Virus record (IMG/VR): IMGVR_UViG_3300042691_031247
Source of the DNA: a virus
Lineage: Duplodnaviria > Caudoviricetes
Direction: 5' to 3' (one strand)
DNA: 64,000 nucleotides
Shown: positions 49,662 through 64,000 of the stretch, one piece after another
Numbering within the stretch: position 1 is the first letter of the stretch
Layout: every line of letters begins with the position of its first letter
The notes under the pieces: model-generated
What the model saw: only the letters and a program-made list of their open reading frames with translations
Told to the model about the DNA's origin: nothing
The model's database searches: none
Position numbers and translations under genes: made by a program

Positions 49662-51542
49662 TCACGGCTTCCACCCGCTTGTTGTGCCTGTTACGCCGAA
49701 CTGCTCGCCTTGGGCTAGAGCGGGCACATAACTGCTGCCCGCGGTATCGCTACTTAGGCCGCGTTGCACGCTATTCATAAGCCCTTTTTCTTGATACGAG
49801 CCCAGCATGCGGGTCATCCAGTCGGGGTCATTTGAGATATTCGCCATACCTCGCACCATTTCGGGCTGGAACGGCGGTGGTTCTTTGTGGGCTTGAATTG
49901 TCTTCACGCCGTATTTATTCAAATTGGTCAGCACGTTTTTACCGATCTTTGTGCCAATTGAATAGTGCAATACCGGTTTTTCAAGGTAATGCCCGGTTAA
50001 TGTGTTAGGCGCGGCTGATACGCTACCTTCACGCGGCGTCCAATTACGTTCAATTGCTGAGTAGGGCACTACATCGTCTGGCGCATAATCGCCGTACTCG
50101 TCATTCAAACGCACGTGATTAACAAGACCGCGCGCAAGTAGCTCGATGTTCCGTCGGTGGGCTGTAATGCCGCTATTGCCCATGACCTGCCGCATCGCCT
50201 GCACAAAGTAACGGCGGCCTTCTCCTACCCCTTTGTGCCGGACAATTTCAGCTGGATTTGGCATACCGTCGGATATGACGTCGCCGGCTTCAAGCTCGTC
50301 GCCTTTTTTAACAGCAAGCTTTCGCTCGGTCGGAACGTAGTGATCCTGCCCGTTAATCTGCACGTAATAACCGCCCTGCGGCGCTGGCCGAACTTCTTGT
50401 ACTCGCCCGTCAAGCTGCGAATGCGCTGCGCCGTCTGGATATTTTTTCGGGACCTGTACCAGCGCGTTAAGCGCTTTAAAGCCAGAAATCGCGCCCGCGC
50501 CACCAACGCCGCCCGAGTGCTTCGAGCTGATCTGGCTTTGCGTAACCGGCTCGGACAGCGCCTGTGCGGCGGTAATGCCTACGTAATCGCCGATGGGCGG
50601 TAGGCGCCCCTTCTCCCGGTAACCAACGTCTTTGGCGTAAACGCCGCCATCGCCCGGGCCGCCGACAATCGGACTGCGGACTAAGATATCTTTAGCGCCG
50701 CTTTCTTTCAGGTCTCGCAAGATCTTGGGCGTCAGAATTGTATTGCGTTTATACGGCCCGACAGCGCGAGCGAGTAACGCACCTTCGTTGTCTGGATCGT
50801 CTACGTCGGTGGGGTAGCCGCGCTCTTCCGCGGTCATGCGCCGCTCTTCATCGTCGTTATCATCGTCATCTGCCGTAACGAGCAGTCGGTGCGTCATCTG
50901 CGCAAGCTGTTTACCGTAGAACCCCGCGTCGGCGGTGGCCGTCTTCAGATCGATAACGCCCTTGCGGGTACCGAACGCGCCGGCAAAGTATTCAACCGGG
51001 CGCAAACCTTGGCTGTAGCCGCGCAACACCGGAATTGGAATCGGGTCGCCGCGGTGGTCGAGATACTGCATGTCAGCGCCAAGAATCGAGTTTAACTGAA
51101 ACTTGTTACCGACGCCGGCGCCAGCAATTTGATGCACCAGCGGATTATCTTGACCTTCCGCTTCTTTGTACACTTTTTCGAGAAGTTCTTGCTGCGCTGC
51201 TTGCGCAAGTTCGAGGAGCTTGATGTTGCGCTGTTTTTCGTCAAGCCGGCGATCGGCAAAGATGTCGCGCATCTGATTTTGCACACGCAGTTGCACGTGA
51301 CGTGCCGCAAGCGTCGGGCGAATGTCTTTAAGCCCGAACGATAAGCCGTTTGTCGTATACCCGGCGTCGCGGCCGATGTCGTGAAGCCGCTTCATGACTT
51401 CGCGGTATTTTTCTGGATGCGTTTTGGCTAGCTCAGTCGCGACACCGGACATTGTCTTTTTCGTCAACACACGATCGTAGTCGCGCATCTCGGGCGGCAA
51501 CGCTTCGTTAATCAGGAGTTGGCCGAGCGTTGTCTTCAGCAT
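49662..51542 (-). CDS. rpoC: Phage RNA polymerase beta' subunit, C-terminal half (funnel, bridge helix, trigger loop, jaw)
   Basis: Contains TTLGQLLINEALP, GLRPVEYFAGAFGTRKGVID..TADAGFYGKQL (bridge helix), GITAAQALSEPVTQ......HSGG (trigger loop) and HRRNIELLAR. Confidence 0.93.
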   Translation of the reverse strand: MLKTTLGQLLINEALPPEMRDYDRVLTKKTMSGVATELAKTHPEKYREVMKRLHDIGRDAGYTTNGLSFGLKDIRPTLAARHVQLRVQNQMRDIFADRRLDEKQRNIKLLELAQAAQQELLEKVYKEAEGQDNPLVHQIAGAGVGNKFQLNSILGADMQYLDHRGDPIPIPVLRGYSQGLRPVEYFAGAFGTRKGVIDLKTATADAGFYGKQLAQMTHRLLVTADDDDNDDEERRMTAEERGYPTDVDDPDNEGALLARAVGPYKRNTILTPKILRDLKESGAKDILVRSPIVGGPGDGGVYAKDVGYREKGRLPPIGDYVGITAAQALSEPVTQSQISSKHSGGVGGAGAISGFKALNALVQVPKKYPDGAAHSQLDGRVQEVRPAPQGGYYVQINGQDHYVPTERKLAVKKGDELEAGDVISDGMPNPAEIVRHKGVGEGRRYFVQAMRQVMGNSGITAHRRNIELLARGLVNHVRLNDEYGDYAPDDVVPYSAIERNWTPREGSVSAAPNTLTGHYLEKPVLHYSIGTKIGKNVLTNLNKYGVKTIQAHKEPPPFQPEMVRGMANISNDPDWMTRMLGSYQEKGLMNSVQRGLSSDTAGSSYVPALAQGEQFGVTGTTSGWKP

Positions 51543-51543
51543 G

Positions 51544-51783
51544 TCACGGCGTCCAGACGATGTTTTGCAACGATTTCGGCTTGAAGTCGGTTACAACAAC
51601 TGTTTTATTGATACCCAGCGCGCGTAACATTGGATGAAAATCTTTTTCACCCACGGTTGAATAAACAACCGCCTCGTCGACTTGAATGGCGACGAATAGC
51701 GGGTTACCTAGATCGTCCTCGACAACGACGCTGTGCGATTTCTGCTCAGCGGGTTGAAGATTGTGCTGCGTTTTAACCAGCAT
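51544..51783 (-). CDS. Small hypothetical protein between the RNAP genes
   Basis: 79 aa, beta-rich, Cys-free. Coupled to both neighbours. Confidence 0.6.
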   Translation of the reverse strand: MLVKTQHNLQPAEQKSHSVVVEDDLGNPLFVAIQVDEAVVYSTVGEKDFHPMLRALGINKTVVVTDFKPKSLQNIVWTP

Positions 51784-52501
51784 TGTCCGCAATACTCCGA
51801 ATCATGGCGGCGATAGCATTTGCTTTGATCTGCATTGCCGTGGGCGCATTCGGATTCGAGTAGCTGGGGCCGAACGGCCGGCCGATTGACGACGCAGACT
51901 TTTCAGCGCGGTCCCACCACGCCGCCTTAGACGGATCACCCTCTGGCGGTGCGGCGTTCGGCGGCATCGGGCCGCCCGGGGGCATCGGACCACCCGGCGG
52001 TTGCATACCGGCCTGCGCGTTGGGATCTTGCGCGGGAGGCGCCATCGGGCCGCCGGGCAGCGCGGTTTCAGCCGGCGGGGCGCCGGTTGTTCCGGGCGGG
52101 AGCACAAGTGACTCTGGCGGAACTTGCACACCCATCGCGTTCATAATGGCCGTGAGCTGCTGCTGCATGTTGTACAAGCGATAGTCGAGCATCTGCATCA
52201 TCTGCTCGGGCTTTAGTTTTTGCTGCGTGCCTGCAGGGGCTGCGCCCGGAGCGGCGGGTGCGGCGGGCGCTGCGGGAGGAGCAGCGGGCGGCGCCATACC
52301 CATAGCCGCAGGATCCACTGGCGGTGCAGCTGCTGCAGCAACAGCAGACGGATCGGCCGGCGGTACAGCCCCCATGGCGGCTGGGTCAACCGGCGGAGCA
52401 CCACCAGCAGCAGCGGGATCCACCGCCGCTCCGGGCACTAATGCGGATTTTTCAAAGCGCGCCTTCGCCAGCGCAATGAGTTCGGGGTTTACCGTGAACA
52501 T
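51773..52501 (-). CDS. Pro/Ala-rich low-complexity protein with a central helical segment
   Basis: 242 aa behind CATGGAGG. PAAP/PPGGPM tracts flank MMQMLDYRLYNMQQQLTAIMNAMG. Contains EKSA twice. Confidence 0.65.
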   Translation of the reverse strand: MFTVNPELIALAKARFEKSALVPGAAVDPAAAGGAPPVDPAAMGAVPPADPSAVAAAAAPPVDPAAMGMAPPAAPPAAPAAPAAPGAAPAGTQQKLKPEQMMQMLDYRLYNMQQQLTAIMNAMGVQVPPESLVLPPGTTGAPPAETALPGGPMAPPAQDPNAQAGMQPPGGPMPPGGPMPPNAAPPEGDPSKAAWWDRAEKSASSIGRPFGPSYSNPNAPTAMQIKANAIAAMIRSIADNAG

Positions 52502-52521
52502 ACAGCCTCCATGTTTAACGA

Positions 52522-55500
52522 TTACGTATTATCTTCCACAATATGAACCGGGGTGTCCACCTCTATTTCGCCGCGCCGGTACGCCTGCATGGCATCCTGC
52601 TTGCTGCGAAACACGCGTGGTTTAGCTTTTTTACTGATTCGACTGGACGCTAAGTATAACCCAGTCTGGTAGTCTTTGTTTGGGACGTAGTGCGCCTTGA
52701 ACGTCGAAGCTGCAAACAGGTTCTTACTCGGCAGCATCTTTTCCACGGCTTCTTTAGCGGCGTCTTCGGTACTTGGGACGTGATACTGCATCGCGTCGCC
52801 GTCGAAGTCAGCGCCGAACCCCTTCGTGATTACGGGGTTTACTTCCATGACTTTGTTCTTAGTTAACTTGGGGTAAAACGCCATCATGCCGTAACGGTGA
52901 AGCACGGGCGCGCGGTTAATAACAATAGGCCGCGACGACATCTGCCGATCTAGCTCGGCGCCAGCTTCTTTCGTCTTGTCTTCCACGGCCTGCATCGCCT
53001 GCATGCGCGGAAGACCCCTGCGAACAAGACCGCGCACAACGAACGGCTTGTAAATATCCCACGCTTTCTCTTCCGGCAACGCAACCTCGTCCATGTCGAG
53101 ATCGGGATTCGGTGTAATGACCGCGCGCCCCACGAGGTCGACCGTGGAGCTAAGAAGCTTACGCTGCACGGTGCCGTACTTTGGCGAGTTACCGAACACG
53201 TGCCGCAGAAAACCTTTCACATTGCGCTCAACGTTTTTCGGCTGCTGCGGCTCACCCAGTCCAGTGACAGCCTTCATCGAGTCATACACGCTCAGGCGTT
53301 CGTCGCCGTAATCGGCCAGCGCGCCAGACGCCTCTTTCAGTGTGTCGTTCGCATCAAGCAGTTCTTTGTACAGATAGTTTGCGTCAGCGACGAGCGGCAG
53401 CTTCTTACTGCCCATCGTGCTCACGGGGCGGAAGAGTGGCGGCAAGACGGGGACTTTACTAATCATCCAGTCTTTGGGGTGCACGCCGGTTGTTTCCGCG
53501 CTCTTTAAGAACCCCAACCGGCGCACGGCAGCGTCGCGAAGCGTCTTGCGCCCGGATTTAATATCTAAACGCGCCTGCTCGATAGCCTTTGGTAGGTTAA
53601 TTCGTTCAAGCGCGGCCTTGATCGCCGTGGGCCCTGTTTTGTCGCCCAGCTGTTCGCGACCAGCCAGCACGCCGCGGAACTGCTTTTCCGTCATCCCCAG
53701 TACGCGTCGAATCGGGTCTTCCATGACCGGATTCGGCAGCGGCTCGTGCAGCGTGATCTTGCTCCACCTGTTACCGCCGTGGCCGCCCGTCAAAGCCTCA
53801 TCAAATAAACCGCCGGCAATAGGCTTGAGGCGCCCCTTCCAGTCAACGGTCTCAGAGCTTTTCAATTCACGCGGACCGGCCAGCTCGTCGATGTCTTTGT
53901 CGGTCATGGCCATGAGGTTCGACCGCGTGCCTTTGCGCACAACGTTAATACCAGACGCCCTAAGCTGCCCGACGAACTTCTCGTATACGTGTGGCACCTT
54001 GGGTAGCGGCGGAGTGTAGCCGGCCATGAACTGCGACCAGTATTCGGGATTTGCTTGGCCGCGCACCATCTTGGCGTCGCGAATAACCTTACCGGCGCCG
54101 TGCGAAAGCAGCGCGCCAAGATCCAGCATGCCGACGCGCTTGGCGCCTTCGCTGCCGCCCTTCGCCGGAGTGCCTTCGGCTGTATATGCACCCATCGACC
54201 GGCCCTGCGCTTTTGATTCGCTGGTATGGTGCAGCTTCATGAAAAACCGGCTGCCGGTCAGCACACCGCCGATTTTCCGCCCGGTTTCTGCGTCGATGAC
54301 GTCTTCGGTATCGGACAGCCCGTGCTTTGCCAGTTCTTTCTGCGCAAACTCAATGAGGTCGTTTTTGTTATCAAAGTCCTTGAGCTTGTACGGCGAGCCG
54401 GTCTTTGCTGCGACCTTGCCTAGTGCGGCTTCAATCACCTGCGCCGGGTTAATACGGCTGATCAGACCCAGCGGCGAGACGAGCACTTCAAAAGGATTGC
54501 CGTCGCGGTCTTTGGGCATCTGGTCGTCAGGTACGATCTCTGCGACGACGCCCTTGTCGCCAAAGCGCCCGGTGAGCTTGTCGCCAACGTCCATGGGCGC
54601 TTGGTTTTTAACGACAACGCTCACACCCTTCTTGGTGTGCATAACGTCGGTCACGATACCCGGCGCATGATGCTCCCACGTGATTGTGTCGTTTGTAAAG
54701 TTACCAGCACGCCCACGATGCACTTTGCCGTACACCGTGTCTTTCTTTTTGGCCACGAGCACGAGCGGGTCACCAAACTTGACCTCAGTACCTTTTTTAA
54801 TCGCGCCGTCGTCGTCAAAGTTGTCAAGATACTTTTTGTCGTACTCAGTCGGGAACAAACTCACGAACGCCTTCTTGCCAACGTGAGTGTTGTCGTCCCA
54901 CTCGGCTTCGTGCTGATACATGTGCTCAGACGTTAGCCGCTTGGATGCGGATTCAGAGATAACTACCGCATCTTCGTAGTTCTTGCCGCGGAACGGCAGA
55001 TAGGCTGTACGCAGATTCAAGCCGAGCGCTGCGCTGCCGTTTTGATCTGTAAAGTTCGACCGGGCGAGCAGTTGTCCGGGCTCTACCGTGTCGCCGGGCT
55101 TCACAATCGGCGTCTGGTGTAAGAACGTCTTACGGTTGTACGGCATTTCGTTATACAAATCGATCGTCTTCTTATTACCATCTTTGTCGCGCAGTACGAT
55201 GCCGTCAGGTGTGACATCGACGACTTGCGCGCGTTCGGTAGCCCGGGTGGCGCCAAGCTTTTCGCCCATCTCGTCTTCGTGCGACATGCTCTCGTCATCG
55301 GCCTTGGCGGATTGCAGCAACGGCGCCTCGGCGTTTACTAGCGGGAGCGCTTGCGTAAACATACGGCTACCCATGATCACGCGGTGGCCTTTGATCATGG
55401 ACTTAATCGGCACCATGTTGGATAACGTCGAAAACGTTGAATCCATGTTCGGCAGGCTGAACTGCGCCTCTTTACGCGGAACATACTTGAGCTTGCCGTT

Positions 55501-56925
55501 GACGAGCGCTGCCACCACGGGAAGTCCGTTATCTTCTTCGCCGGGAAACACGAGCGGCGTATCGGCCAGCTCTTGCGGCGTCTTGTACACCTTATCGCCG
55601 GTTTTCATATCAACAACCGGCGTATACACCTTGCCGTCGGAGCCCTTCATAGCGCCGCGGGCAAAGCGCATGTCAACACCCACCTTGCCGGATTCTGGCG
55701 TGCGAAGATAGTCGATAAACCCAAGGTGGCTGGGCTGCACAGAACGTGACTCGGCAGGCACGGCGTCCAGCGAGCCAATGCCGCCTTCGCCCATACGGGT
55801 CACACGCGTCTGGTGGTCAAAGATCTCCGCAGGATTAATTTCTTCTAAACTCGACCCCAGACCGCTGCCAATAAGCGCAGCTGAGATTGCCTTGTCGAAT
55901 ACGCCCGACGGAATGTGATCAATTGACTTCTTCGCCGTAGCTTTCCAGAGCAGCTTGTTAAGCGATTGGCGGTCTTTGGTAAAACGCTCGGCAATGAGGT
56001 CCTCCGGGCCGACGACGGACTGATACACCATGTTGTCTCGGTCGTCGCTCTCGGCCTCGCGGCGATTCACTGCGATTAATTTCTTAGTGATCGCCAGAAT
56101 CGTCTCCGGCGTCATGTTCTTGTATTCAGAACCCAGTGTGCGCCGGGTGACTTCCGGGTCGAGTTCGGTCTTGGCAAACTCGGCCGCGATCGCCTGCGCT
56201 TTGGCAATAGCGTCTGCGCCGGCAACTGGTTTGTTTACAAGGCGGGCGTAGATCTTGTCCATCGTGCCAGCATCGCCCTTCTCCATGTTGACGGCGGTGA
56301 TCTCATTGCCCCACGCTTTGCGGATGTCCTGATCTGACACGCCCATGGACTTGAGCAGCGGCATGAGCGGGATCTGCGCCTGACCAATGCTGATTTTGAA
56401 CACGCCGGTTTTGGGGTCGAGGAAGTACCGGTGCGAACGGCCCTTACCCGGTAGCGTGTTTACGTGCGCCTCAATCTCGCCGTTGTCTTTCTCGCGGGTA
56501 AACACGCCGGGGCGCAACCGCATCTGGTGCGCAAGGGTGTACTCGACGCCGCCGTTAACGAACGTGCCCGAGTCGGTGAGATACGGCACGTGGGCGATCG
56601 TGGCGCGGCGCTGGCCGACAGGCTGCCCGGTTTTGTTATCTGTAAGCGTCCACGTACCTTGCAGCCGGCGGGCAAGTGTCCCTCTGGAAAGGACAGCTTT
56701 CTTCTGATCTGACCTTGTGAAGCGCTCAGGTCCCGAATACCCGACGTCTTGCAGCTGCAACGTATACAGGTCATTCTGCAGCGGCTTGAGCCCCTGCGCG
56801 CTCGTAAGCGCCTGATTAAAAATGTTATCCCGCATCACGCCAACGTCGCCGAACGTGCGCATCGTGGGCGCGACCGGCGCGGGTGTCATCGGCGATTTTA
56901 AGTCGGGCAGTTCAGGGGTCGGCAT
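52522..56925 (-). CDS. rpoB/rpoC: Phage RNA polymerase: fused beta subunit plus beta' N-terminal half, containing the catalytic DFDGD
   Basis: Beta motifs RTPESGKVG, MGSRMFTQA, KNYEDA, GDKLTGRFGDKGVV and GAKRVGMLD. Beta' motifs follow: ETVDWKGRLKPIAGGLF, VLPPLFRP, LLSSTVDLVGRAVI, NRAPVLHR and GADFDGD (52795-52815). Confidence 0.95.
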   Translation of the reverse strand: MPTPELPDLKSPMTPAPVAPTMRTFGDVGVMRDNIFNQALTSAQGLKPLQNDLYTLQLQDVGYSGPERFTRSDQKKAVLSRGTLARRLQGTWTLTDNKTGQPVGQRRATIAHVPYLTDSGTFVNGGVEYTLAHQMRLRPGVFTREKDNGEIEAHVNTLPGKGRSHRYFLDPKTGVFKISIGQAQIPLMPLLKSMGVSDQDIRKAWGNEITAVNMEKGDAGTMDKIYARLVNKPVAGADAIAKAQAIAAEFAKTELDPEVTRRTLGSEYKNMTPETILAITKKLIAVNRREAESDDRDNMVYQSVVGPEDLIAERFTKDRQSLNKLLWKATAKKSIDHIPSGVFDKAISAALIGSGLGSSLEEINPAEIFDHQTRVTRMGEGGIGSLDAVPAESRSVQPSHLGFIDYLRTPESGKVGVDMRFARGAMKGSDGKVYTPVVDMKTGDKVYKTPQELADTPLVFPGEEDNGLPVVAALVNGKLKYVPRKEAQFSLPNMDSTFSTLSNMVPIKSMIKGHRVIMGSRMFTQALPLVNAEAPLLQSAKADDESMSHEDEMGEKLGATRATERAQVVDVTPDGIVLRDKDGNKKTIDLYNEMPYNRKTFLHQTPIVKPGDTVEPGQLLARSNFTDQNGSAALGLNLRTAYLPFRGKNYEDAVVISESASKRLTSEHMYQHEAEWDDNTHVGKKAFVSLFPTEYDKKYLDNFDDDGAIKKGTEVKFGDPLVLVAKKKDTVYGKVHRGRAGNFTNDTITWEHHAPGIVTDVMHTKKGVSVVVKNQAPMDVGDKLTGRFGDKGVVAEIVPDDQMPKDRDGNPFEVLVSPLGLISRINPAQVIEAALGKVAAKTGSPYKLKDFDNKNDLIEFAQKELAKHGLSDTEDVIDAETGRKIGGVLTGSRFFMKLHHTSESKAQGRSMGAYTAEGTPAKGGSEGAKRVGMLDLGALLSHGAGKVIRDAKMVRGQANPEYWSQFMAGYTPPLPKVPHVYEKFVGQLRASGINVVRKGTRSNLMAMTDKDIDELAGPRELKSSETVDWKGRLKPIAGGLFDEALTGGHGGNRWSKITLHEPLPNPVMEDPIRRVLGMTEKQFRGVLAGREQLGDKTGPTAIKAALERINLPKAIEQARLDIKSGRKTLRDAAVRRLGFLKSAETTGVHPKDWMISKVPVLPPLFRPVSTMGSKKLPLVADANYLYKELLDANDTLKEASGALADYGDERLSVYDSMKAVTGLGEPQQPKNVERNVKGFLRHVFGNSPKYGTVQRKLLSSTVDLVGRAVITPNPDLDMDEVALPEEKAWDIYKPFVVRGLVRRGLPRMQAMQAVEDKTKEAGAELDRQMSSRPIVINRAPVLHRYGMMAFYPKLTKNKVMEVNPVITKGFGADFDGDAMQYHVPSTEDAAKEAVEKMLPSKNLFAASTFKAHYVPNKDYQTGLYLASSRISKKAKPRVFRSKQDAMQAYRRGEIEVDTPVHIVEDNT

Positions 56926-56928
56926 GAA

Positions 56929-57783
56929 TCACCCCGCCTGCGATTGCTCAACTTGCTGCTTCAGCGCGATGATCTCGTCGGGATCGACGTACGTCGGCAA
57001 AATGCCGGAGATGCGCGCTTTCGACTTCGCGGCTTCTTCAACCGCTTTGGCGCGGGAACGCTCGCGCGCACGATCGTACATTAACTTGGCAGCCAGACCG
57101 CCGAGTCCCAAACCACCAGCAACGTATGTGCCGCCGAGCGCCGCCGGCACCCGTTTCGCTGTGTCGTACGCGCTGGTGAGCCAGTCGAGCAGCGCCTTCT
57201 TCTCCGCAGCTGCTTTTTCGCTCGCGGTGTCGTATGCGCTGTCGAGCGCTTTGGCCGGGCCGCCGGTCAGCGCGTCGTAGTACTCTTTTTCAGCAGCCGC
57301 GATTTGCTCCTGCTGATCGCGCTTCTTTTTGCGCTTGTGCAGCGTCTCGATCAGTTTGTAACCGCCGAGTCCGCCCAAAGCCGCGGCGCCAAACGTCGCG
57401 CCCGTACCAAATGACGAACGAATCACGTTCGGGTCGTACGAGTTCTGGCTTTTGCTTGTGGCGGGCGTGAACGGCCGTAAAAAACTGAGCACTGAATCTG
57501 GCAGCATTTTGCCAACGCCTTCAGTGACGTTGTCGTATATGCCAGCGGCTTTTGTCTCGGTAATCTTGGGCGTTTCTTCTTCGTCTTCTTCGTACTTCGG
57601 CTTGTTTAGCGCCTGAGAAAGCCCGCGGGCCAGATAATACAAACTAGCAGCAGTAGCACCAGCGCCAAGCCCGCCAACACCAGTACGGATAATACGATTG
57701 CCCCAGAAACGCTGGTAATCTTGGGCGGTAGGTTGGCCAACAGGGGCTGCGGGTGGGATGGCATTGTTTGCTAGTTTTTCCAT
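56929..57783 (-). CDS. Gly-zipper putative ejection/internal protein
   Basis: 284 aa, Cys-free. Three hydrophobic Gly-rich segments each followed by basic or coiled-coil stretches. Contains MEKLA, TKAAG and EKAAA. Confidence 0.55.
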   Translation of the reverse strand: MEKLANNAIPPAAPVGQPTAQDYQRFWGNRIIRTGVGGLGAGATAASLYYLARGLSQALNKPKYEEDEEETPKITETKAAGIYDNVTEGVGKMLPDSVLSFLRPFTPATSKSQNSYDPNVIRSSFGTGATFGAAALGGLGGYKLIETLHKRKKKRDQQEQIAAAEKEYYDALTGGPAKALDSAYDTASEKAAAEKKALLDWLTSAYDTAKRVPAALGGTYVAGGLGLGGLAAKLMYDRARERSRAKAVEEAAKSKARISGILPTYVDPDEIIALKQQVEQSQAG

Positions 57784-57795
57784 TGGTCGCGCTCA

Positions 57796-58143
57796 CTAGT
57801 GTTTGGGCGGAATCATGCCATAAACCTGTGCCCATTCAAGCCAGACACGAAAATGTTTATGTTCATCGTCCCAGTTGTCGGTTCGTTTTAATAGCCGATA
57901 CCAGCCGTTGACTATCTTATCATTTATATCGTCAAATTCTGATTTTTGCGCCGTATCCCACAGCTCAAACATATGCGATTTAAAGTCGTACTGGATATCA
58001 ATGTTTTCCAGTTCGTCTTGCTTTAAATCTGCCCGCTGCCCGCCATTCAGCACAGGAAACCCGTCGAGAGTTCCCGGCCAATTTAGCTGAGCGTTGTTGT
58101 GCTGCGGACCGCCGATTTCGCCGTGATATTTGCGCAGGCTCAC
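57796..58143 (-). CDS. Hypothetical protein
   Basis: 115-aa ORF with GTG start, closely packed with neighbours. Confidence 0.62.
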   Translation of the reverse strand: MSLRKYHGEIGGPQHNNAQLNWPGTLDGFPVLNGGQRADLKQDELENIDIQYDFKSHMFELWDTAQKSEFDDINDKIVNGWYRLLKRTDNWDDEHKHFRVWLEWAQVYGMIPPKH

Positions 58144-58146
58144 AAA

Positions 58147-58506
58147 TTACCTTTCTGGCCGGTAGAGGCGTAACTTCCTGTTTGTCTTGGCCCGTGCCGC
58201 ATATGCCTTGTAGGCCGCGGCGAGTTCGCGCGCTTTCAGGTCTTCTTCGTCAACATCGGGCTCCGTCATCTTGCCCGCGACGTGCCCGGCTAGTCCGCCA
58301 CCAACTGTGGCCAACATGAGCGGCGTATACGCAATGTTTCCAAGCGCCTGAAACGAGTCAGACATTGTCGGCAGCTGAATAGCCGCACTTTTTACAAACG
58401 CCTCGGCGGCTTTGATGCGCGTCTCAAGCGCGGCGCCTGTTAACTGCTCTTCTGCGCAGCGGCGAAGAAACCCGAGTTTAAAAGCTTCTTTTTCGTTGAC
58501 ATCCAT
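58147..58506 (-). CDS. Small Gly-zipper protein (K-x-A motif, single hydrophobic segment)
   Basis: 119 aa from the ATG 1 nt after the upstream TGA. Contains AFKLGF..RCAE, FVKSAA and LATVGGGLAGHVAG. Confidence 0.6.
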   Translation of the reverse strand: MDVNEKEAFKLGFLRRCAEEQLTGAALETRIKAAEAFVKSAAIQLPTMSDSFQALGNIAYTPLMLATVGGGLAGHVAGKMTEPDVDEEDLKARELAAAYKAYAARAKTNRKLRLYRPER

Positions 58507-58507
58507 G

Positions 58508-59002
58508 TCAAAACTCTCCGGGCAAAATAAGTTTTTTGGTTGGCGCCCCGACGGCAAAGTCGGGTGTTACGTGCTTGCCGGTATCCTTACCAAGCGGTAA
58601 CGCGCCCGGCAGCGCTGATGTAAAATTAGCGCCGCTGGCCAAAGATATCTTACTCTTTCTGCCCGGTCGGTGTCGCATAAACCACGCATCAACGGCCGGG
58701 TCGTTCCGGTCGCCCTGTTCTTTTGCTTCGTGCGCGACAGCCACCATATTCTCGATTGCCTGCTGCAGTTCGGCGCGGTCGGCGGATAACCACGCGGCTT
58801 TTCCGGGGTTTTCGGCCGCCATGTGCCGCAGCCGCTTCGCTTCGTCGCTGATCGCCTGCGCCCGCTGTAAAAACTCTTTACGGGTCAGTACAAAAAACTC
58901 GCCGGTCTGTTCGTCGTGAAGGCAGACGAAGCCATTTTTGGCGTAAAACTTTAACCCGCGATATGAATAGCATTTACCTGTTGAACCAGCAGCAGCAGAC
59001 AT
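58508..59002 (-). CDS. Hypothetical protein
   Basis: 164-aa ORF in a packed operon. Confidence 0.6.
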   Translation of the reverse strand: MSAAAGSTGKCYSYRGLKFYAKNGFVCLHDEQTGEFFVLTRKEFLQRAQAISDEAKRLRHMAAENPGKAAWLSADRAELQQAIENMVAVAHEAKEQGDRNDPAVDAWFMRHRPGRKSKISLASGANFTSALPGALPLGKDTGKHVTPDFAVGAPTKKLILPGEF

Positions 59003-59010
59003 TCAACACC

Positions 59011-59370
59011 TTACTTACGGGGGAGCGGGCAACCGTTTTCGTCGCAGTCGTTGGGCTTTACGGGCGGCAGCGGATTGGCCTGTAAACGCATCGACGGCTT
59101 GGGGCCGGTATTTTTCATTTCGCCAGCCGGGGCGCCGGTTTTAGGTTCGCAGTCCGGGCAGTCAGTCCATGGGTGATTACTGTCGCCCGTGGGGATCTTG
59201 CCGGTACGATTACACCGCGCGCAATCTTTGGTGTCAATAAGAGGTTTTACTACCGGCGTATCAGGAAGCAGAGCAGCGTAAGCAACCTCTGCAGCGACCA
59301 CCCCGACAAAGTCTTTTTTGGGCGGTTCGACATGGGTCACCGGGGCTAGTGCTAAAAGCCATTCGAACAT
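59011..59370 (-). CDS. Hypothetical protein with CxxC...CxxC zinc-finger-like motif and hydrophobic N-terminus
   Basis: Contains DCARCNRTGKI...DCPDC. Confidence 0.6.
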   Translation of the reverse strand: MFEWLLALAPVTHVEPPKKDFVGVVAAEVAYAALLPDTPVVKPLIDTKDCARCNRTGKIPTGDSNHPWTDCPDCEPKTGAPAGEMKNTGPKPSMRLQANPLPPVKPNDCDENGCPLPRK

Positions 59371-59395
59371 GATGTCACCTATTAAAGTTTACCAA

Positions 59396-60421
59396 TTAGA
59401 TCCGGCCGAGCGCGCCATAGCTGCGCAGCTTCTTCGGCGGCCAACCGTTAACACCGGAGATCGCCACCATGTATCGATTTTTGATATCGGACCATTTAGC
59501 CCAAAAAGCGCCAACTGGAATGTCTACAACCGTACCAAAAATACGGCGACTTCCGGCATTCCACGCGCCCCAGCTATTTTGAATTAACACAAGCGGTTCA
59601 CCATAAAGTTTTTTAATCTCGTCGCGATCGTCTACGCCAAGATAGGCGAGAGCGTGCGCCCAAGAGCCTCTACGTTTACTTACGCCGTTTAAATCGCGCT
59701 CGGATGAAAAGCCCTCACTCCCGCAGCTACTTACGCAATACCCATTGGCAAGTAAATCGCGGAGCGCTTCAAACTCTTCGATTTCAGTAATCGTCTGGAC
59801 AAGATGTAACTTACCGACCTCGCGCCACGAATCGGGCGGCGTGCGAGAGCCGTAGATGCCGGCGTTACGCGCCGAGTACTGCGTGAAGTCAACCTCGATC
59901 TCGTCGTACTTCTTGCGCAGCCACAGGCCGCTATCGTTCAGCATGACTTGCGCAGCAGACGCGCAGCTCCAGCCGTCCCCGCCGTGCCGACGCCAATTGT
60001 AAATCGCTTCGGTCGACAACACGCCGTTGAGCCGCGCCGTGTCGCTAACTTCCGGCGCGCCTTCTAGCCGCCCGCTGTTTACGTCCGGGAGGCCGCTGGT
60101 GATTTCGCAGCACATTGTGCCGAGCGCGGCGTTTCGGCTCGACCAACTGACGCAGTCACCGCGACCTTGTGCTCCACCCGGCAAGCAGTCCGGGTAGAGC
60201 TTCAAGATCTCTAGCACAGGAAGACTTAACTTTCCCTTGCCTGTTTCTTCCAGTGCGTAGGCCGAGCAGGCCATAGCGCCATCGGGAATACCGCCCGCAG
60301 CTTTAATCTGATCGCGGAGCGCTTCAGCGGCTTCGGGGTCGCCGTAGGCGCCCACAAAGCCCTTTTCATACGCTGCCACGACGTCATAAACGTCGGTAAA
60401 AAAATGTTCGGTATCGGCCAT
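59396..60421 (-). CDS. Papain-like (clan CA, C1-like) cysteine peptidase
   Basis: QGRGDCVSW (Gln/Cys), WAHALAYLG (His) and IQNSWG (Asn). Start MADTEH behind AGGAG. Confidence 0.88.
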   Translation of the reverse strand: MADTEHFFTDVYDVVAAYEKGFVGAYGDPEAAEALRDQIKAAGGIPDGAMACSAYALEETGKGKLSLPVLEILKLYPDCLPGGAQGRGDCVSWSSRNAALGTMCCEITSGLPDVNSGRLEGAPEVSDTARLNGVLSTEAIYNWRRHGGDGWSCASAAQVMLNDSGLWLRKKYDEIEVDFTQYSARNAGIYGSRTPPDSWREVGKLHLVQTITEIEEFEALRDLLANGYCVSSCGSEGFSSERDLNGVSKRRGSWAHALAYLGVDDRDEIKKLYGEPLVLIQNSWGAWNAGSRRIFGTVVDIPVGAFWAKWSDIKNRYMVAISGVNGWPPKKLRSYGALGRI

Positions 60422-60440
60422 GGCATCTCTCCTGCGGTTA

Positions 60441-60896
60441 TCAAGCAGTCGGCTCTTCGCCCTTGGTCTCGCTGACAAGAGTGACGCCGAACGAACCCGG
60501 CTGCGCAGGCGGCAGGGTGTCTTCAGCCACAAACTCCAACACGGCCGGTTCCGACCGGTTACCGGCGTCGTCTACGTCGACGAGCGTCAGCAGTACCGAC
60601 GAACCCTGCGGCACGGTCACTTCACCAAGATCGGTGGTGTCGGCCGGGAACGTCTTAAACTCGTCGACCGGCACAACGCCGTCGACGGCCACGACCAGCT
60701 GGCGCTCGACAACGTCGGCGTCAACGACCGGGCCTACAGAAACACGATACGTTAAAAGATCAGCCATAGTGAGCTTGCTCCTAATTTGTAAAACACTAAA
60801 CCCCTCTGGCGATGACGGGGCAGCTAAAAACTGCGCCATCACCACCAACAACCACACCACCAAACACAACAAAACGGCGGCGGTTATAGCGCCCAT
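60441..60896 (-). CDS. Membrane-anchored FN3/Ig-like protein (possible second in-frame start at 60767)
   Basis: N-terminal TM (AVLLCLVVWLLVVMAQFL) and DDAGNRSEP..DTLPPAQPG, an FN3-type motif. Confidence 0.6.
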   Translation of the reverse strand: MGAITAAVLLCLVVWLLVVMAQFLAAPSSPEGFSVLQIRSKLTMADLLTYRVSVGPVVDADVVERQLVVAVDGVVPVDEFKTFPADTTDLGEVTVPQGSSVLLTLVDVDDAGNRSEPAVLEFVAEDTLPPAQPGSFGVTLVSETKGEEPTA

Positions 60897-60897
60897 G

Positions 60898-61350
60898 TTA
60901 CTTAGCGGCCGCGACTGAATTCGCAATGATGTCGCACGCCTCCGTAAGTTTTTTCAGCGTCTCAGGTGTGCCGGGCAGTACGTCATCGGTACCGGCGGTG
61001 GTCTTAAACACCCGCTCAATCGCTGCGTCGAGCCCCGGATACTTGTTCACCTGCTCAATGGCGAGATCCAACGTGTTCCCGTGCACTTCTTCCCACTTCT
61101 CGGTCGTGGTGATACGCGCAGGGGCCGTCGGACGCTGCAGCACCTTCTTGAGCGATGTGTATACGTCGTAGACACGCGCCCGGTCAGCAATGTCGCTGCC
61201 GGTCATAAGCTTGACAATCTCGGCGTCTGTCGGCACTGACTCCACGACCGGCCGTGTCACTTCGGGCTGCACGCTAGGAAAGCGCGGGCCGTTCGGAAAC
61301 ACGATCGATGTAATGAGCAGCAGACCGGCAACTAACACCAGCTTTTTCAT
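60898..61350 (-). CDS. Signal/TM-anchored hypothetical protein
   Basis: MKKLVLVAGLLLITSIVFP followed by a helical domain. Confidence 0.65.
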   Translation of the reverse strand: MKKLVLVAGLLLITSIVFPNGPRFPSVQPEVTRPVVESVPTDAEIVKLMTGSDIADRARVYDVYTSLKKVLQRPTAPARITTTEKWEEVHGNTLDLAIEQVNKYPGLDAAIERVFKTTAGTDDVLPGTPETLKKLTEACDIIANSVAAAK

Positions 61351-61631
61351 ACAGCACCCTTTGACGGCTGTTCATACTCCACAATCACACGCAACAGAGC
61401 GGTGCACGCATCTACGCCTTCTTTGCAGCCTTCCCCGGCGAGCTTATCGCGCAGCTTGGTCACGGCAATAATGTCGTCCACCAGCGGCACGGCGATCGAC
61501 TCGTGTACGGTCTGCGTCGTAGCCGTCACGAGCGGGCGCGCAAGCTTCAGACGCGCCAGAATTTCTTTGCGATACGCGATAACAACGAGCACCGCGAAGG
61601 CGGCGGCGCTGAATAACTGAAACGGTGTCAT
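61347..61631 (-). CDS. Small single-TM protein
   Basis: 94 aa, starting MTPFQLFSAAAFAVLVVIAYR. SD GGAGG. Confidence 0.65.
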   Translation of the reverse strand: MTPFQLFSAAAFAVLVVIAYRKEILARLKLARPLVTATTQTVHESIAVPLVDDIIAVTKLRDKLAGEGCKEGVDACTALLRVIVEYEQPSKGAV

Positions 61632-61654
61632 AAACCCTCCAATGTGAATTGCGC

Positions 61655-61670
61655 TGAACTATTTTATCAG
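61655..61670 (-). promoter_or_regulatory. Putative -10 box (TAAAAT) upstream of the small TM genes
   Basis: gaTAAAATag overlaps the end of the MMP gene, ~30 nt before GGAGG-ATG. Confidence 0.3.
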
Positions 61671-62494
61671 GTTTGCGGCACAAGTACATACGGACGACCG
61701 TTAATTACAAGTGTGCCGTTTATCTGCAGCCCGGCATCTTTCGTAATAGGATATGCCGTAGTGCGCTTGCCATATAACTTAATTATTTCGGCAATGTCGC
61801 CGTTTTGCGGCTTGGTGACGTTCGGGTCGTAATACGGGGCCATGAGGTTGCCGTTGGCGAGGTGCGGAAGACCGAGCGCATGACCCAGCTCGTGGCAAAT
61901 CACGGCCACAGCCATGTTGAAGCTCCAGTCTTCCGCTTCATCAAACATCTGATCGAGCTGGATATTCTCAGCGACACCGCACGGCAGTTCGCTCCACGCG
62001 AGAGTGCCGCCTTTGTTATCTAAACCGTTTTTCTTGCCGACACCCGAGCGCGCATAAATGTTGGCTTTCTTGTGCGTGTCGACTCGCGTCGGATCAATCG
62101 CGCACACTTCGGCCCACTGCGAGAAGGCGATGTCGTACGCTTCGGCAACCTGTGAGTTCGATAGGCCGGGCAACCGGATCTCGTGGTAGTACGAGATGTT
62201 CGGCATCGGCCACTTGCACGGGTCGCCGCCGGGAGCCGTGATATTAAAATCAGGCAGCCCGCAGCGGCGGCGATTAATCCGGTGTGCGGTCGTGGGGCCA
62301 ACGGTGCCAGTCGGATTCAGGCCGTTGAACTCTTGAAACGCCCGGACTGCCTTCTGCAGTTCGGCACCCTTGATCTTCTTGACCTGCGCCAGTGTTTTAT
62401 CGCCGAAATACCCCAGCGCGTGAAGGCGCCGAAGAATTTCACTGACGGGGAGAACGTGCGGTTCAGGCGGGTGGTGGGCTGGCTTCCGTGCCAT
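61667..62494 (-). CDS. Matrixin (M10A, MMP-like) zinc metalloprotease with a PG-binding-like prodomain and cysteine switch
   Basis: LRRLHALGYF...AVRAFQEFNGLNPTGTVGPTT (PGBD-like), RRRCGLPD (switch), HELGHALGLPH (Zn) and LMAPYY (Met-turn). Confidence 0.9.
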   Translation of the reverse strand: MARKPAHHPPEPHVLPVSEILRRLHALGYFGDKTLAQVKKIKGAELQKAVRAFQEFNGLNPTGTVGPTTAHRINRRRCGLPDFNITAPGGDPCKWPMPNISYYHEIRLPGLSNSQVAEAYDIAFSQWAEVCAIDPTRVDTHKKANIYARSGVGKKNGLDNKGGTLAWSELPCGVAENIQLDQMFDEAEDWSFNMAVAVICHELGHALGLPHLANGNLMAPYYDPNVTKPQNGDIAEIIKLYGKRTTAYPITKDAGLQINGTLVINGRPYVLVPQT

Positions 62495-62514
62495 AAATGC
62501 GCATCCTTGTAGGT

Positions 62515-62919
62515 TTATTGCGCGGCAGCCAACTCCATAAGACCGGCGGCTGCGGCGTCATCGATTGTATCACTCAGTGTATAGACGGCGCCAACCACTG
62601 GATTATCTCGCGTATATTCAACACCTGTCTTCGCGCAGTGCTCCCGCCACACGTTATTTAAACGCCGGCGGAGCCGCATCAGTTTACGCGGCGGAAGCGT
62701 GCGCAGTTCTCGCATGCTCTGCTGGATCGCGTCTTCCGCGTTCTTTTCTTTGCAGTGAATAATCACCTGCACAATGATCGAGATGATCATGATGATGGTG
62801 ATCGGATCAAACTGATACGAGTTGTTACCCTGAGCGACAAGCTCATCCGTGAGCCTGTCTCTCAGGGCTGCCAGCGCAGGCGACTCGTTCACACGGCGCT
62901 GCAGTTCTTCTGTGGTCAT
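62515..62919 (-). CDS. Single-TM hypothetical protein
   Basis: Contains FDPITIIMIISIIVQVIIHC. Confidence 0.65.
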   Translation of the reverse strand: MTTEELQRRVNESPALAALRDRLTDELVAQGNNSYQFDPITIIMIISIIVQVIIHCKEKNAEDAIQQSMRELRTLPPRKLMRLRRRLNNVWREHCAKTGVEYTRDNPVVGAVYTLSDTIDDAAAAGLMELAAAQ

Positions 62920-63290
62920 CAGTTTGCCGTCCGTTCAGCACGCATCTTCTCGACCGCGACCGCTTCCATATAGCGATACCGCGCGTCGATCATCTGCGCC
63001 CGAATCTCGGTCCTGCCGGCAATGTACTTCCAGATCAGCGCGCTATTGAGCACCACAATCTGCGACGCGCCGATGATGGCAGTAACTGCCTTCGTCAGCG
63101 TCTCGGCCTGCGACTGATCCACCCAGCCGATGAGCACGGCGACAGCGACCAGATTCGTCAGCGCGCCAACCGCCATGGTCCAAAATTCGGGTGTCAGCCA
63201 GTTGCCGGAATCGACGTTAGCGTCGTCAGCCGCGGCGTTTAAAACACGAAGCTCTTCGCGAACAGTTTCAACACTTTTTTTGGTAGCCAT
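62919..63290 (-). CDS. Holin-like membrane protein
   Basis: 123 aa from MATKK behind AGGAG. GNWLTPEFW followed by two TM segments and a charged C-terminus. Confidence 0.6.
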   Translation of the reverse strand: MATKKSVETVREELRVLNAAADDANVDSGNWLTPEFWTMAVGALTNLVAVAVLIGWVDQSQAETLTKAVTAIIGASQIVVLNSALIWKYIAGRTEIRAQMIDARYRYMEAVAVEKMRAERTAN

Positions 63291-63314
63291 AACTTCTCCT
63301 AGAAAAAAGACGTG

Positions 63315-63332
63315 TGTGTATTGTACTAACCT
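63315..63332 (-). promoter_or_regulatory. Putative -10 box (TACAAT) upstream of the holin-like gene
   Basis: gttagTACAATacac in a 63-bp intergenic gap. Confidence 0.35.
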
Positions 63333-63353
63333 CGAAATAGCGCGCAAGACACA

Positions 63354-64000
63354 TTATCGCCCGAATAGGCTGGGCACAACTGCGTGCATCATTCCGCCCC
63401 ACAGCCCCATGTCTTGTAACTTAGCCTGCCCGGCCGGAGTTAATCCAGCCATCGCCGAGAGGGCTTTTCCGGCGATCGTAGCGGTGGCCAGACCGACACC
63501 GGCAGAGGCAATACCGTTAATAACGTCCACGGGCCGAATGATCGGCGACCGCATGTTCGTGCTGATGCCGCTCATGAGTCCCGTAGTCGCCGCGGCAAAC
63601 TGCGGCGGTGTGTGGTTTTGAAACCCGCGGTACATGCCCATGTTTACGTCTTGCCACGCCGCGCTGTTGAACTGCGGCACGGATACCGTCGGCGCAAATA
63701 ACGGATTATTGGCGAACGACTTTTTTGTCATCTTTTCTTGATACGGATACACAACGGGCGTTTTGTTATTTGTAAGCAGCCCGCGCAGCATGCTCGTGCG
63801 CAGGGCTTTCGCGTTGGCGTAGGAGTTCAACCCGGCCACACCGACGCCGCTCAACGCACCCATGAGACCAAGTGTGCGCCGTAGTTTGCCGCGCTCTAGA
63901 TAACGCTCTGGAAAAAACTGCTCGGCAAGGGTGCCGGCGCCATAGCCAAGCCCGCCGGCCAGCAAGCCTGTCATCAATCCGTTCGACAGCGGCGTGGGTC
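63354..64000 (-). CDS. Gly-zipper hydrophobic protein (5'-partial), putative internal/ejection protein
   Basis: The frame is open to the right edge. Contains GLLAGGLGYGAG, GALSGVGVAG and GIASAGVGLA, and is Cys-free in the visible part. Confidence 0.6.
   Translation of the reverse strand, partial: PTPLSNGLMTGLLAGGLGYGAGTLAEQFFPERYLERGKLRRTLGLMGALSGVGVAGLNSYANAKALRTSMLRGLLTNNKTPVVYPYQEKMTKKSFANNPLFAPTVSVPQFNSAAWQDVNMGMYRGFQNHTPPQFAAATTGLMSGISTNMRSPIIRPVDVINGIASAGVGLATATIAGKALSAMAGLTPAGQAKLQDMGLWGGMMHAVVPSLFGR

What the first reader, a model, noticed from the sequence alone, without database searches (positions are those of the whole stretch)
59011..63290. Lysis-like cassette built on two proteases instead of a peptidoglycan hydrolase
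Seen: holin-like gene, single-TM gene, MMP-like M10A protease, two TM-anchored genes, TM-FN3 protein, papain-like protease and Zn-finger protein, in one operon with its own -10-like box. No lysozyme, amidase or M15/M23 motif. Known: standard lysis uses holin-endolysin-spanin. Inference: a proteolytic lysis or envelope-remodelling system for a host with a protein-rich envelope (for example Planctomycetota or S-layer bacteria).
Basis: partly seen in the sequence, partly recalled or inferred. Interest (0 to 1): 0.78.

Follow-up and report, generated by a model that had tools for sequence, protein, structure and literature searches.

The report
Phage lysis-like block with two proteases
A 198-kb uncultured phage, with no recognisable cell-wall-cutting enzyme anywhere in its genome, carries a conserved block of small membrane proteins plus a latent animal-type metalloprotease and a papain-type protease. 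The papain-type module recurs in unrelated phages that also lack a classical lysin, so it may be a new way for phages to break out of cells.

Summary
They are a two-helix holin-like protein, four further membrane-anchored small proteins, a complete pro-MMP-type zymogen, a papain-fold (C1) protease and a CxxC protein.

- **M10 protein:** it has a PG_binding_1-like prodomain, an invariant RRCGLPD cysteine switch, HELGHALGLPH and a Met-turn.
- **C1 protease:** the AF2 model has pLDDT 93, and Q85/C90/H256/N282 are conserved.
- **No classical lysin:** I found no classical peptidoglycan hydrolase family in the whole 198-kb genome (97% complete).

New here: the block is two separable modules.

- **C1 module:** the C1 protease and the membrane protein just upstream of it (sp150 family) form a pair. 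This pair recurs in unrelated phages, always behind small membrane proteins and at typical lysis-cassette positions. Three further complete genomes that carry it also lack the classical hydrolase families tested.
- **M10 module:** the holin-like gene, a single-helix gene and the M10 gene are specific to this clade of about 200-kb phages.

Not supported: a private promoter or operon, and a spanin. The FN3 fold is unverified. A Planctomycetota host is only a lead, from one prophage-like copy in Rosistilla oblonga.

A lysis role is inferred from context, not shown. The scan also noted this stretch from another window (e1-5340506).

The parts
62919..63290 (-). hol123: holin-like protein, 123 aa, two transmembrane helices, charged C-terminal helix
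   Evidence: Hydropathy. Alignment of 38 homologues. Pfam Phage_holin_10 E 1e-4, below the cut-off. The nearest named atlas clusters are holin families at only 0.80. All 174 homologues lie in the same phage clade.
62515..62919 (-). tm134: 134-aa protein with one central transmembrane helix (aa 37-55)
   Evidence: No family hit. Always lies between hol123 and M10 in 51 loci, at 32-91% identity.
61667..62494 (-). Pro-MMP-like zymogen (M10A matrixin), 275 aa, no signal peptide
   Evidence: Peptidase_M10 E 2.5e-18 and PG_binding_1 E 3e-11. The best PDB match is proMMP-1 (1su3), aligned through the prodomain. All 5 Cys and all motif residues are invariant in 121 sequences. It is the only PG_binding_1 domain in the genome.
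62249..62269 (-). Cysteine-switch motif RRCGLPD (aa 76-82 of the M10 protein)
   Evidence: Invariant in 121 homologues. It aligns with PRCGVPD of proMMP-1 with the same spacing from FQxFxGL..TG.
61862..61894 (-). Zinc-binding motif HELGHALGLPH (aa 201-211), followed by the Met-turn LMAPYY
61347..61631 (-). tm94: 94-aa protein with an N-terminal membrane anchor
   Evidence: Distant phages have an anchored protein of about 70-130 aa at the same position, two genes upstream of the C1 gene. This is positional only; no sequence similarity was found.
60898..61350 (-). sp150: N-terminal anchor, Pro-rich linker and a helical domain of about 100 aa; conserved partner of the C1 protease
   Evidence: Homologues sit immediately upstream of the C1 gene in distant phages (phmmer E 9e-14 and chained hits; profile E 2e-43 in L094). 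AF2 pLDDT 89. No PDB fold match.
60441..60896 (-). fn151: anchored beta-rich protein, present in some clade members and absent in others
   Evidence: Homologues lie near the C1 gene in L023 and L082 (E 1e-19). The FN3/Ig fold is not verified.
59396..60421 (-). Papain-family (C1-like) cysteine protease, 341 aa from Met38 of the ORF, no signal peptide; catalytic Q85, C90, H256, N282
   Evidence: AF2 pLDDT 92.9. Foldseek finds xylellain 3ois at E 3e-11, then procathepsins. Catalytic residues are conserved in 55 sequences. 868 family representatives. No Pfam or PHROG model matches.
59011..59370 (-). zn119: 119-aa protein with two CxxC pairs (DnaJ/Anti-TRAP-type zinc finger) and a hydrophobic N-terminus
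   Evidence: Present in all 51 clade loci at 32-83% identity. In several distant phages this position holds a Cys-rich lipobox protein instead.

Best explanation
The block is most likely the egress (lysis) region of this phage. It is built from two separable modules that use proteases where other phages use a peptidoglycan hydrolase.

Module B (tm94, sp150, optional fn151, C1 protease, zn119) is old and mobile. Its core is the pair of sp150-type membrane protein and papain-fold protease. I infer that the protease accumulates in the cytoplasm, since it has no signal peptide. The small membrane proteins encoded just upstream would then let it reach the envelope at the end of infection. There it would cut either the peptide part of the wall or the proteins that hold the envelope together. 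On this reading it is the functional equivalent of an endolysin.

Module A (hol123, tm134, pro-MMP) is an addition specific to this clade of about 200-kb phages. It encodes a matrixin made as a latent zymogen, with Cys78 of the cysteine switch on the catalytic zinc. I infer that the two-helix holin-like protein releases it. It would then be switched on outside the reducing cytoplasm, either by oxidation of the thiol or by removal of the prodomain, possibly by the C1 protease.

Shown: gene identities, folds, motifs, conservation, synteny, the recurrence of module B, and the absence of classical hydrolase families. Inferred: the lysis role, latency, the order of events and the substrates.
For: 1. 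The enzymes are real and under strong constraint.
- The M10 protein aligns with proMMP-1 through the prodomain, switch, zinc site and Met-turn.
- All of these residues and all 5 Cys are invariant in 121 homologues.
- The C1 fold and the Q/C/H/N residues are confirmed.

2. No classical peptidoglycan hydrolase in the genome.
- Pfam scans covered 227 ORFs of at least 60 aa and the 3718-aa ORF.
- Six-frame family searches covered Phage_lysozyme, SLT, Amidase_2, Amidase_3, GH19, M15_4, M23, GH108 and NlpC/P60.
- The only PG_binding_1 domain is in the M10 protein.

3. The sp150-type gene plus C1 gene pair recurs in phages that share nothing else with this block.
- It always lies directly behind one or two small membrane-anchored proteins.
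- It is often followed by a lipobox protein.
- Its positions are typical of lysis cassettes: at the end of the tail operon in G001, and 3 kb upstream of the large terminase in G002.

4. Other C1 carriers also lack classical hydrolases.
- Complete genomes G001 (62.5 kb) and G002 (35.1 kb) have no hydrolase family in full Pfam scans.
- G006 (63.8 kb, 100% complete) and G012 (135.8 kb, 83%) lack the ten families tested.

5. G002 has its own S78 prohead protease, so the C1 enzyme is not the head-maturation protease.

6. Neither protease has a signal peptide, and both lie next to small membrane proteins.

7. The block lies outside the cysteine-free run of genes around the RNA polymerase, and its proteins do contain Cys.
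Against: - No experiment, expression timing or substrate information is available.
- The holin assignment is weak: the Pfam hit is below the cut-off, and the homologues occur only in this clade.
- There is no spanin-like lipoprotein in the block.
- Absence of Pfam-detectable hydrolases does not prove absence. A cryptic lysin among the many unassigned ORFs is possible, and I did not measure how often environmental phages lack such hits.
- In one distant contig the C1 gene lies two genes upstream of the major capsid gene, which is not a classical lysis position.
- Synteny within the clade covers the whole genome region, so it does not by itself show functional linkage.
- Papain-type and matrixin-type enzymes are not known to cut peptidoglycan. 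I found no paper on this.
- The sp150 fold gave no functional clue.
Confidence: 0.5

Rival explanations
1. The block has an envelope or host-protein remodelling function that is not lysis. The proteases would process host or phage surface proteins during infection, for example receptor removal, superinfection exclusion, or trimming of the phage's own collagen-like fibres. The true endolysin would be an unrecognised protein elsewhere.
For: The genome encodes other enzymes with predicted export and several collagen-repeat proteins: Trypsin, thioredoxin, arylsulfotransferases and Collagen hits. Many ORFs have no family assignment, so a cryptic lysin could hide among them. The MMP relatives of the M10 protein are collagenases.
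Against: Neither protease has a signal peptide. Four independent, complete or nearly complete genomes with the C1 module all lack classical hydrolase families. The C1 gene is a stand-alone enzyme next to small membrane proteins, at lysis-type positions.
Confidence: 0.22
2. Only the M10 protein is the endolysin. It would be a modular lysin with an N-terminal peptidoglycan-binding domain and a metallopeptidase domain that cuts wall peptides, released by hol123. The C1 module would do something unrelated.
For: PG_binding_1 scores over the Pfam cut-off. The same residues match the binding-domain part of two PHROG endolysin families. It is the only such domain in the genome. The gene lies two genes after the holin-like gene.
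Against: The domain matches the MMP prodomain residue for residue, including the switch, so it need not bind peptidoglycan. The structural-zinc histidines of MMPs are replaced. This does not explain the C1 carriers that have neither M10 nor a classical lysin.
Confidence: 0.12
3. The proteases are packed into the virion and injected. They would act at entry rather than exit.
For: The block is adjacent to the RNA polymerase genes, which earlier notes argue are virion-packed (e1-5340489). It is flanked by Gly-rich proteins.
Against: The block's proteins contain Cys, whereas the neighbouring run from 49662 to 58143 has none. Membrane-anchored partners are not expected in capsids. The cultured relative Arash has no homologue of either protease, so its virion proteome gives no support.
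Confidence: 0.06
4. There is no functional unit. The genes are neighbours only because nearly the whole genome is one co-directional array.
For: 199 of 235 ORFs lie on one strand. There are no distinct promoter or terminator signals. Synteny extends well beyond the block.
Against: The sp150-type plus C1 pair, with upstream anchored proteins, is kept in phages that share nothing else with this block. fn151 homologues also travel with the C1 gene.
Confidence: 0.1

Closest known systems
Classical holin-endolysin-spanin lysis cassette (phage lambda S, R, Rz/Rz1; established knowledge)
   Same: A small two-helix membrane protein with a charged tail sits next to soluble enzymes that lack a signal peptide. 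Further small anchored proteins are present. In distant phages the C1 module sits before the terminase or after the tail genes, often with a lipobox protein downstream.
   Different: There is no peptidoglycan hydrolase family and no lipobox o-spanin in this block. The enzymes are a matrixin and a papain-family protease. Late timing is not shown.
Pro-matrix metalloproteinases (MEROPS M10A), e.g. human proMMP-1, PDB 1su3; bacterial karilysin, 2xs3
   Same: Prodomain with FQxFxGL..TG followed 14 residues later by CG.PD, then HExxHxxGxxH and a Met-turn. The alignment covers prodomain and catalytic domain at E 6e-17. The nearest non-viral atlas clusters are plant and animal MMPs.
   Different: There is no signal peptide and no hemopexin domain. 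The structural-zinc histidines are replaced. Four extra invariant Cys and a conserved tail of about 30 aa are present. The gene is encoded by a phage next to membrane proteins.
Papain family C1 proteases, closest xylellain of Xylella fastidiosa (PDB 3ois) and procathepsins
   Same: The fold matches (E 3e-11 to 1e-5). The motifs are Q..GDC, SWAH and NSWG. An N-terminal segment of about 80 aa precedes the catalytic core, as in pro-forms.
   Different: The Pfam Peptidase_C1 model does not detect it; only 1 of 55 members gives a weak hit. TM-scores are only 0.4-0.55. It has a membrane-anchored partner gene and a phage-only distribution, and many members carry inteins.
Listeria Mtz/Tim: phage-derived metzincin and TIMP-like lipoprotein pair (PMC8235301)
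   Same: A phage-associated metzincin encoded beside a membrane or lipoprotein partner. Its expression changes the wall and increases phage-mediated lysis, according to that paper's abstract.
   Different: Mtz is secreted, acts in a Gram-positive host alongside normal lysins, and is controlled by a CI/Cro switch. The phage protein here has an MMP-type prodomain, no signal peptide and no TIMP-like neighbour. sp150 is helical with one Cys.
CHAP and NlpC/P60 endolysin domains (papain-clan peptidoglycan peptidases; established knowledge)
   Same: They are cysteine peptidases of the papain clan used by phages to cut wall peptides. This is the precedent that makes a papain-fold lysin plausible.
   Different: Neither family is detected in this genome. 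NlpC/P60 was tested six-frame; CHAP was covered only by the whole-genome Pfam scans. The protein is a full two-lobe C1-type enzyme of 341 aa, not a CHAP domain of about 100-130 aa.

Membership tests
Matrixins (MEROPS M10A / Pfam Peptidase_M10) | HExxHxxGxxH zinc site and Met-turn; Pfam score over the cut-off | tested here: met
   66.9 bits against a cut-off of 24. HELGHALGLPH and LMAPYY are invariant.
Matrixins (MEROPS M10A / Pfam Peptidase_M10) | Prodomain with the cysteine switch PRCGxPD | tested here: met
   RRCGLPD aligns with PRCGVPD of 1su3 with identical spacing. It is invariant in 121 sequences.
Matrixins (MEROPS M10A / Pfam Peptidase_M10) | Structural zinc and calcium sites of the catalytic domain | tested here: inconclusive
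   In the 1su3 alignment, two histidines of the MMP structural-zinc region are W and M here. No coordinates were available to check for replacement ligands.
Matrixins (MEROPS M10A / Pfam Peptidase_M10) | Secretion signal | tested here: not met
   No N-terminal hydrophobic segment.
Papain family (MEROPS C1 / clan CA) | Two-lobe papain fold | tested here: met
   AF2 pLDDT 92.9. All top Foldseek hits are C1 proteases, the best at E 3e-11.
Papain family (MEROPS C1 / clan CA) | Catalytic Gln, Cys, His and Asn in order | tested here: met
   Q85 and C90 are invariant. H256, S283 and W284 are at least 90% conserved. The consensus motifs are SWAH and NSWG. The NSWG segment aligns to a papain-family chain.
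Papain family (MEROPS C1 / clan CA) | Match to the Pfam Peptidase_C1 model | tested here: not met
   No hit for this protein. Only 1 of 55 relatives hits, at E 4e-4.
Classical phage lysis cassette | Holin: small protein with one to three transmembrane helices and a charged C-terminus | tested here: inconclusive
   The topology fits. The family hit is below the cut-off. No distant homologues beside known lysins were found.
Classical phage lysis cassette | Endolysin of a known peptidoglycan hydrolase family | tested here: not met
   None in the block or in the genome.
Classical phage lysis cassette | Spanin pair: anchored i-spanin plus lipobox o-spanin | tested here: not met
   No lipobox ORF on the coding strand in 56900-64000. 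sp150 folds as a compact helical domain, not a long coiled coil.
Classical phage lysis cassette | Late expression and lysis phenotype | not testable with these tools
   No cultured host. Promoter scans were uninformative.

The most novel reading that the evidence does not exclude
A previously unrecognised class of phage lysis machinery exists. In it, a papain-family protease with a dedicated membrane-anchored partner replaces the peptidoglycan-hydrolase endolysin in many unrelated phages, including at least one prophage-like element of Planctomycetota. In the 200-kb freshwater clade it is joined by a cysteine-switch MMP zymogen, which would be switched on by the change of redox state when it leaves the cytoplasm.
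Probability: 0.33. Interest if true: 0.87.

Novelty: new variant of a known kind. Interest (0 to 1): 0.72.

Why it matters
If correct, endolysins are not universal. A large, intein-ridden and so far unannotated phage protein family (868 representatives at 50% identity, with no Pfam or PHROG model) would be a lysis enzyme of a new catalytic type.

A phage would also be using the animal-style cysteine-switch zymogen as a lysis safety catch.

This would change how lysis genes are annotated in environmental viromes. It would offer new enzymes that attack bacterial envelopes. It would also give a handle on the envelopes of hard-to-culture freshwater hosts.

Tried and rejected
- **GenBank phages:** tblastn of the M10 and C1 proteins found nothing.
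- **Salmonella phage Arash:** it shares the RNA polymerase at 32% identity, but its synteny is too different to inform on this block. Its paper names no lysis genes.
- **PHROGs:** only the PG-binding part of the M10 protein hits endolysin families. There is no model for any other gene.
- **Profile search of the C1 family against PDB sequences:** only a marginal papain hit.
- **sp150 as an inhibitor or propeptide-like fold:** the confident AF2 model has no PDB match.
- **Host inference:** the genome-contig scan with the M10 alignment found only a phage contig binned in a MAG. Relatives cannot be drawn for a virus record. The Rosistilla genome is not held. A second set of cluster look-ups gave no organism names.
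- **M23 hits:** they fall in the RNA polymerase subunits and are below the cut-off, so they were rejected as lysins.
- **Sub-threshold Amidase_3 hits:** 13 bits in an 84-aa ORF of G012/G013, rejected.
- **C1 protease as head-maturation protease:** rejected, because G002 has a canonical S78 protease.
- **Archaeal host suggested by a Volactin hit:** rejected, because the genome carries sigma-70, alpha-CTD and CsrA genes.
- **Literature searches for matrixin or papain-type phage lysins:** only the Listeria Mtz/Tim paper was found.

Full report
**Context.** The window is bases 14719-78718 of a single 198,101-bp IMG/VR virus record, rated 97% complete. A simple ORF call gives 235 ORFs, 199 of them on the minus strand. 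The finding therefore lies inside one long co-directional gene array. It sits just upstream, in transcription order, of a 1467-aa fused beta/beta' RNA polymerase gene.

**The observation.** All the genes described exist on the minus strand.
- hol123 (62919-63290) is 123 aa from its ATG. It has two hydrophobic helices and a charged C-terminal helix. Its only family hit is Phage_holin_10 at 22.8 bits, below the cut-off of 27, over 22 residues. The protein atlas places holin families nearest among named clusters, but at a score that is often chance. All 174 homologues belong to the same phage clade. The holin label therefore rests on topology and position.
- tm134, tm94, sp150 and fn151 each have one hydrophobic helix.
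- zn119 has six Cys in CxxC pairs and a weak DnaJ/Anti-TRAP-type zinc-finger hit.
- A sigma-70-type promoter scan and a terminator scan find no more sites than in shuffled sequence. The 'own -10 box' is therefore not supported.
- I could not verify the FN3 fold of fn151.

**The metalloprotease.**
- The 275-aa protein scores over the Pfam cut-off for both Peptidase_M10 and PG_binding_1.
- Its best solved relative is human proMMP-1 (1su3). The alignment runs from the prodomain through the catalytic domain.
- FQEFNGLNPTG, 14 residues, then CGLPD matches the MMP prodomain and its PRCGVPD switch with identical spacing. HELGHALGLPH and the Met-turn follow.
- In 121 homologues at 64-96% identity, the switch, the zinc ligands, the Met-turn and all five cysteines are invariant.
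- Two histidines of the MMP structural-zinc region are replaced.
- There is no signal peptide.
- The PG_binding_1 hit and the two PHROG 'endolysin' hits cover the same prodomain residues. They cannot tell a wall-binding domain from an MMP prodomain.
- Other Uroviricota clusters of matrixin plus PG_binding_1 exist. The next nearest clusters are plant and animal MMPs.
- No homologue is present in GenBank phages. I found no paper on phage matrixins other than the Listeria Mtz/Tim pair.

**The cysteine protease.**
- Read from Met38 of the ORF, the protein is 341 aa and has no Pfam or PHROG hit.
- A whole-library search finds 868 representatives at the 50% level.
- An AF2 model built on 55 sequences has pLDDT 92.9.
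- Every top Foldseek hit in PDB and Swiss-Prot models is a papain-family protease. The best is xylellain at E 3e-11, followed by procathepsins.
- Q85 and C90 are invariant, H256 is nearly so, and the consensus carries SWAH and NSWG.
- It is a full C1-type enzyme, not a CHAP or NlpC/P60 domain.

**No classical lysin in the genome.**
- I scanned 227 ORFs of at least 60 aa and the 3718-aa ORF against Pfam.
- I also searched the six frames for nine hydrolase families.
- Nothing was found except faint M23-like matches inside the RNA polymerase subunits.
- Caveat: for the middle third of the genome, 17 weak families (E between 6e-7 and 1e-3) were not displayed.
- The only PG_binding_1 domain is the M10 prodomain.
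- No lipobox ORF lies in the block.

**Two modules, not one.**
- In 51 loci of the clade the order is fixed: Gly-rich gene, hol123, tm134, M10, tm94, sp150, fn151 (present or absent), C1, zn119, four small genes, RNA polymerase.
- C1, M10 and the polymerase are the best conserved. The membrane proteins evolve fast.
- More distant phages (C1 identity 36-57%) carry the C1 gene without hol123, tm134 or M10.
- In those phages the gene immediately upstream of C1 is a homologue of sp150. The evidence is phmmer E 9e-14 plus a chain of further hits, and a profile hit at E 2e-43 in L094. fn151 homologues also occur nearby.
- In every locus examined, one or two small membrane-anchored proteins precede the C1 gene. 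In several loci a Cys-rich lipobox protein follows it.

**Where the C1 module sits, and what else those phages have.**
- In G001 (62.5 kb, terminal repeats, 100% complete) the module ends the tail-gene operon, just before a strand switch.
- In G002 (35.1 kb, terminal repeats, 100% complete) it lies 3 kb upstream of the large terminase.
- Full Pfam scans of both genomes list 20 and 14 families, none of them a wall hydrolase. G002 has its own S78 prohead protease.
- G006 (63.8 kb, 100% complete) and G012 (135.8 kb, 83%) lack all ten hydrolase families tested.
- One distant copy is WP_417744743.1 of Rosistilla oblonga, a planctomycete. It lies behind a tail-fibre-like gene.
- One contig places the gene two genes upstream of a major capsid gene, which does not fit a lysis position.

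**Interpretation.** The recurrent pair of membrane partner and soluble protease without a signal peptide, its positions, and the repeated absence of any classical lysin make a lysis role the best single reading. On that reading the C1 enzyme is the endolysin equivalent, and the cysteine-switch matrixin is a clade-specific second effector that stays latent in the reducing cytoplasm. This is inference. Substrates, timing and the holin function are untested. A cryptic lysin cannot be excluded. I did not measure how often environmental phages lack Pfam-detectable lysins. I put the lysis reading at about 0.5.

**Virion packaging.** The genes from 49662 to 58143 encode no cysteine at all, whereas the block's proteins do.

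**Host.** The host remains unknown. MAG labels on clade contigs (Betaproteobacteria, Sphingorhabdus) probably reflect binning.

Noticed in passing
relatives of window 59396-60421: P0242, P0253, P0254, P0244, P0263, P0303, P0348: Many members of the C1-like protease family carry inteins (Hint plus LAGLIDADG). One site is exactly before the catalytic Cys (..GD | C...HN | CVS..). A second is right after the catalytic His motif (SWAHAM | C..). A third lies before the Cys of a conserved 'W.C' motif near residue 150. I know of no report of inteins in a protease gene.
   Followed up: partly
window 49662-58143: Six consecutive proteins contain no cysteine at all. They are the RNA polymerase subunits of 626 and 1467 aa and their neighbours of 82, 242, 284 and 115 aa. 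The genome average is 1.5% Cys. The run ends just before the block studied here.
   Followed up: partly
genome G000:C1:123876-135032 (outside the window): A 3718-aa ORF with about 15 Laminin_G_3 repeats and an N-terminal Mtd_N domain, probably a giant fibre or adhesin.
   Followed up: no
genome G000, about 79-146 kb (outside the window): Strong Pfam hits to Volactin (an actin homologue first described in archaea, E 2e-62), two arylsulfotransferase-like proteins, a trypsin-like protease, ferritin, PhoH and thymidine kinase. A bactofilin hit lies in the last third of the genome.
   Followed up: no
window 1-64000 and genome 1-79 kb: The phage encodes CsrA, an RNA polymerase alpha-CTD protein (E 1e-46) and a sigma-70-type factor, besides the fused beta/beta' subunit. 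Two collagen-repeat proteins are also present.
   Followed up: no
L083 9562-10248, L086 7089-7847, L022 7998-8276: In distant phages the gene after the C1 protease (after one intervening gene in L083) encodes a lipobox protein unusually rich in cysteine: 17, 10 and 9 Cys. In the window the Cys-rich zn119 holds the position directly after the C1 gene.
   Followed up: partly
window 63354-64000 and 56929-57783: Two Gly-rich proteins with glycine-zipper-like stretches flank the block. They are of 336 aa (runs off the window) and 284 aa. Both are conserved in position in all 51 clade loci, but the 284-aa one is only 29-95% identical.
   Followed up: no
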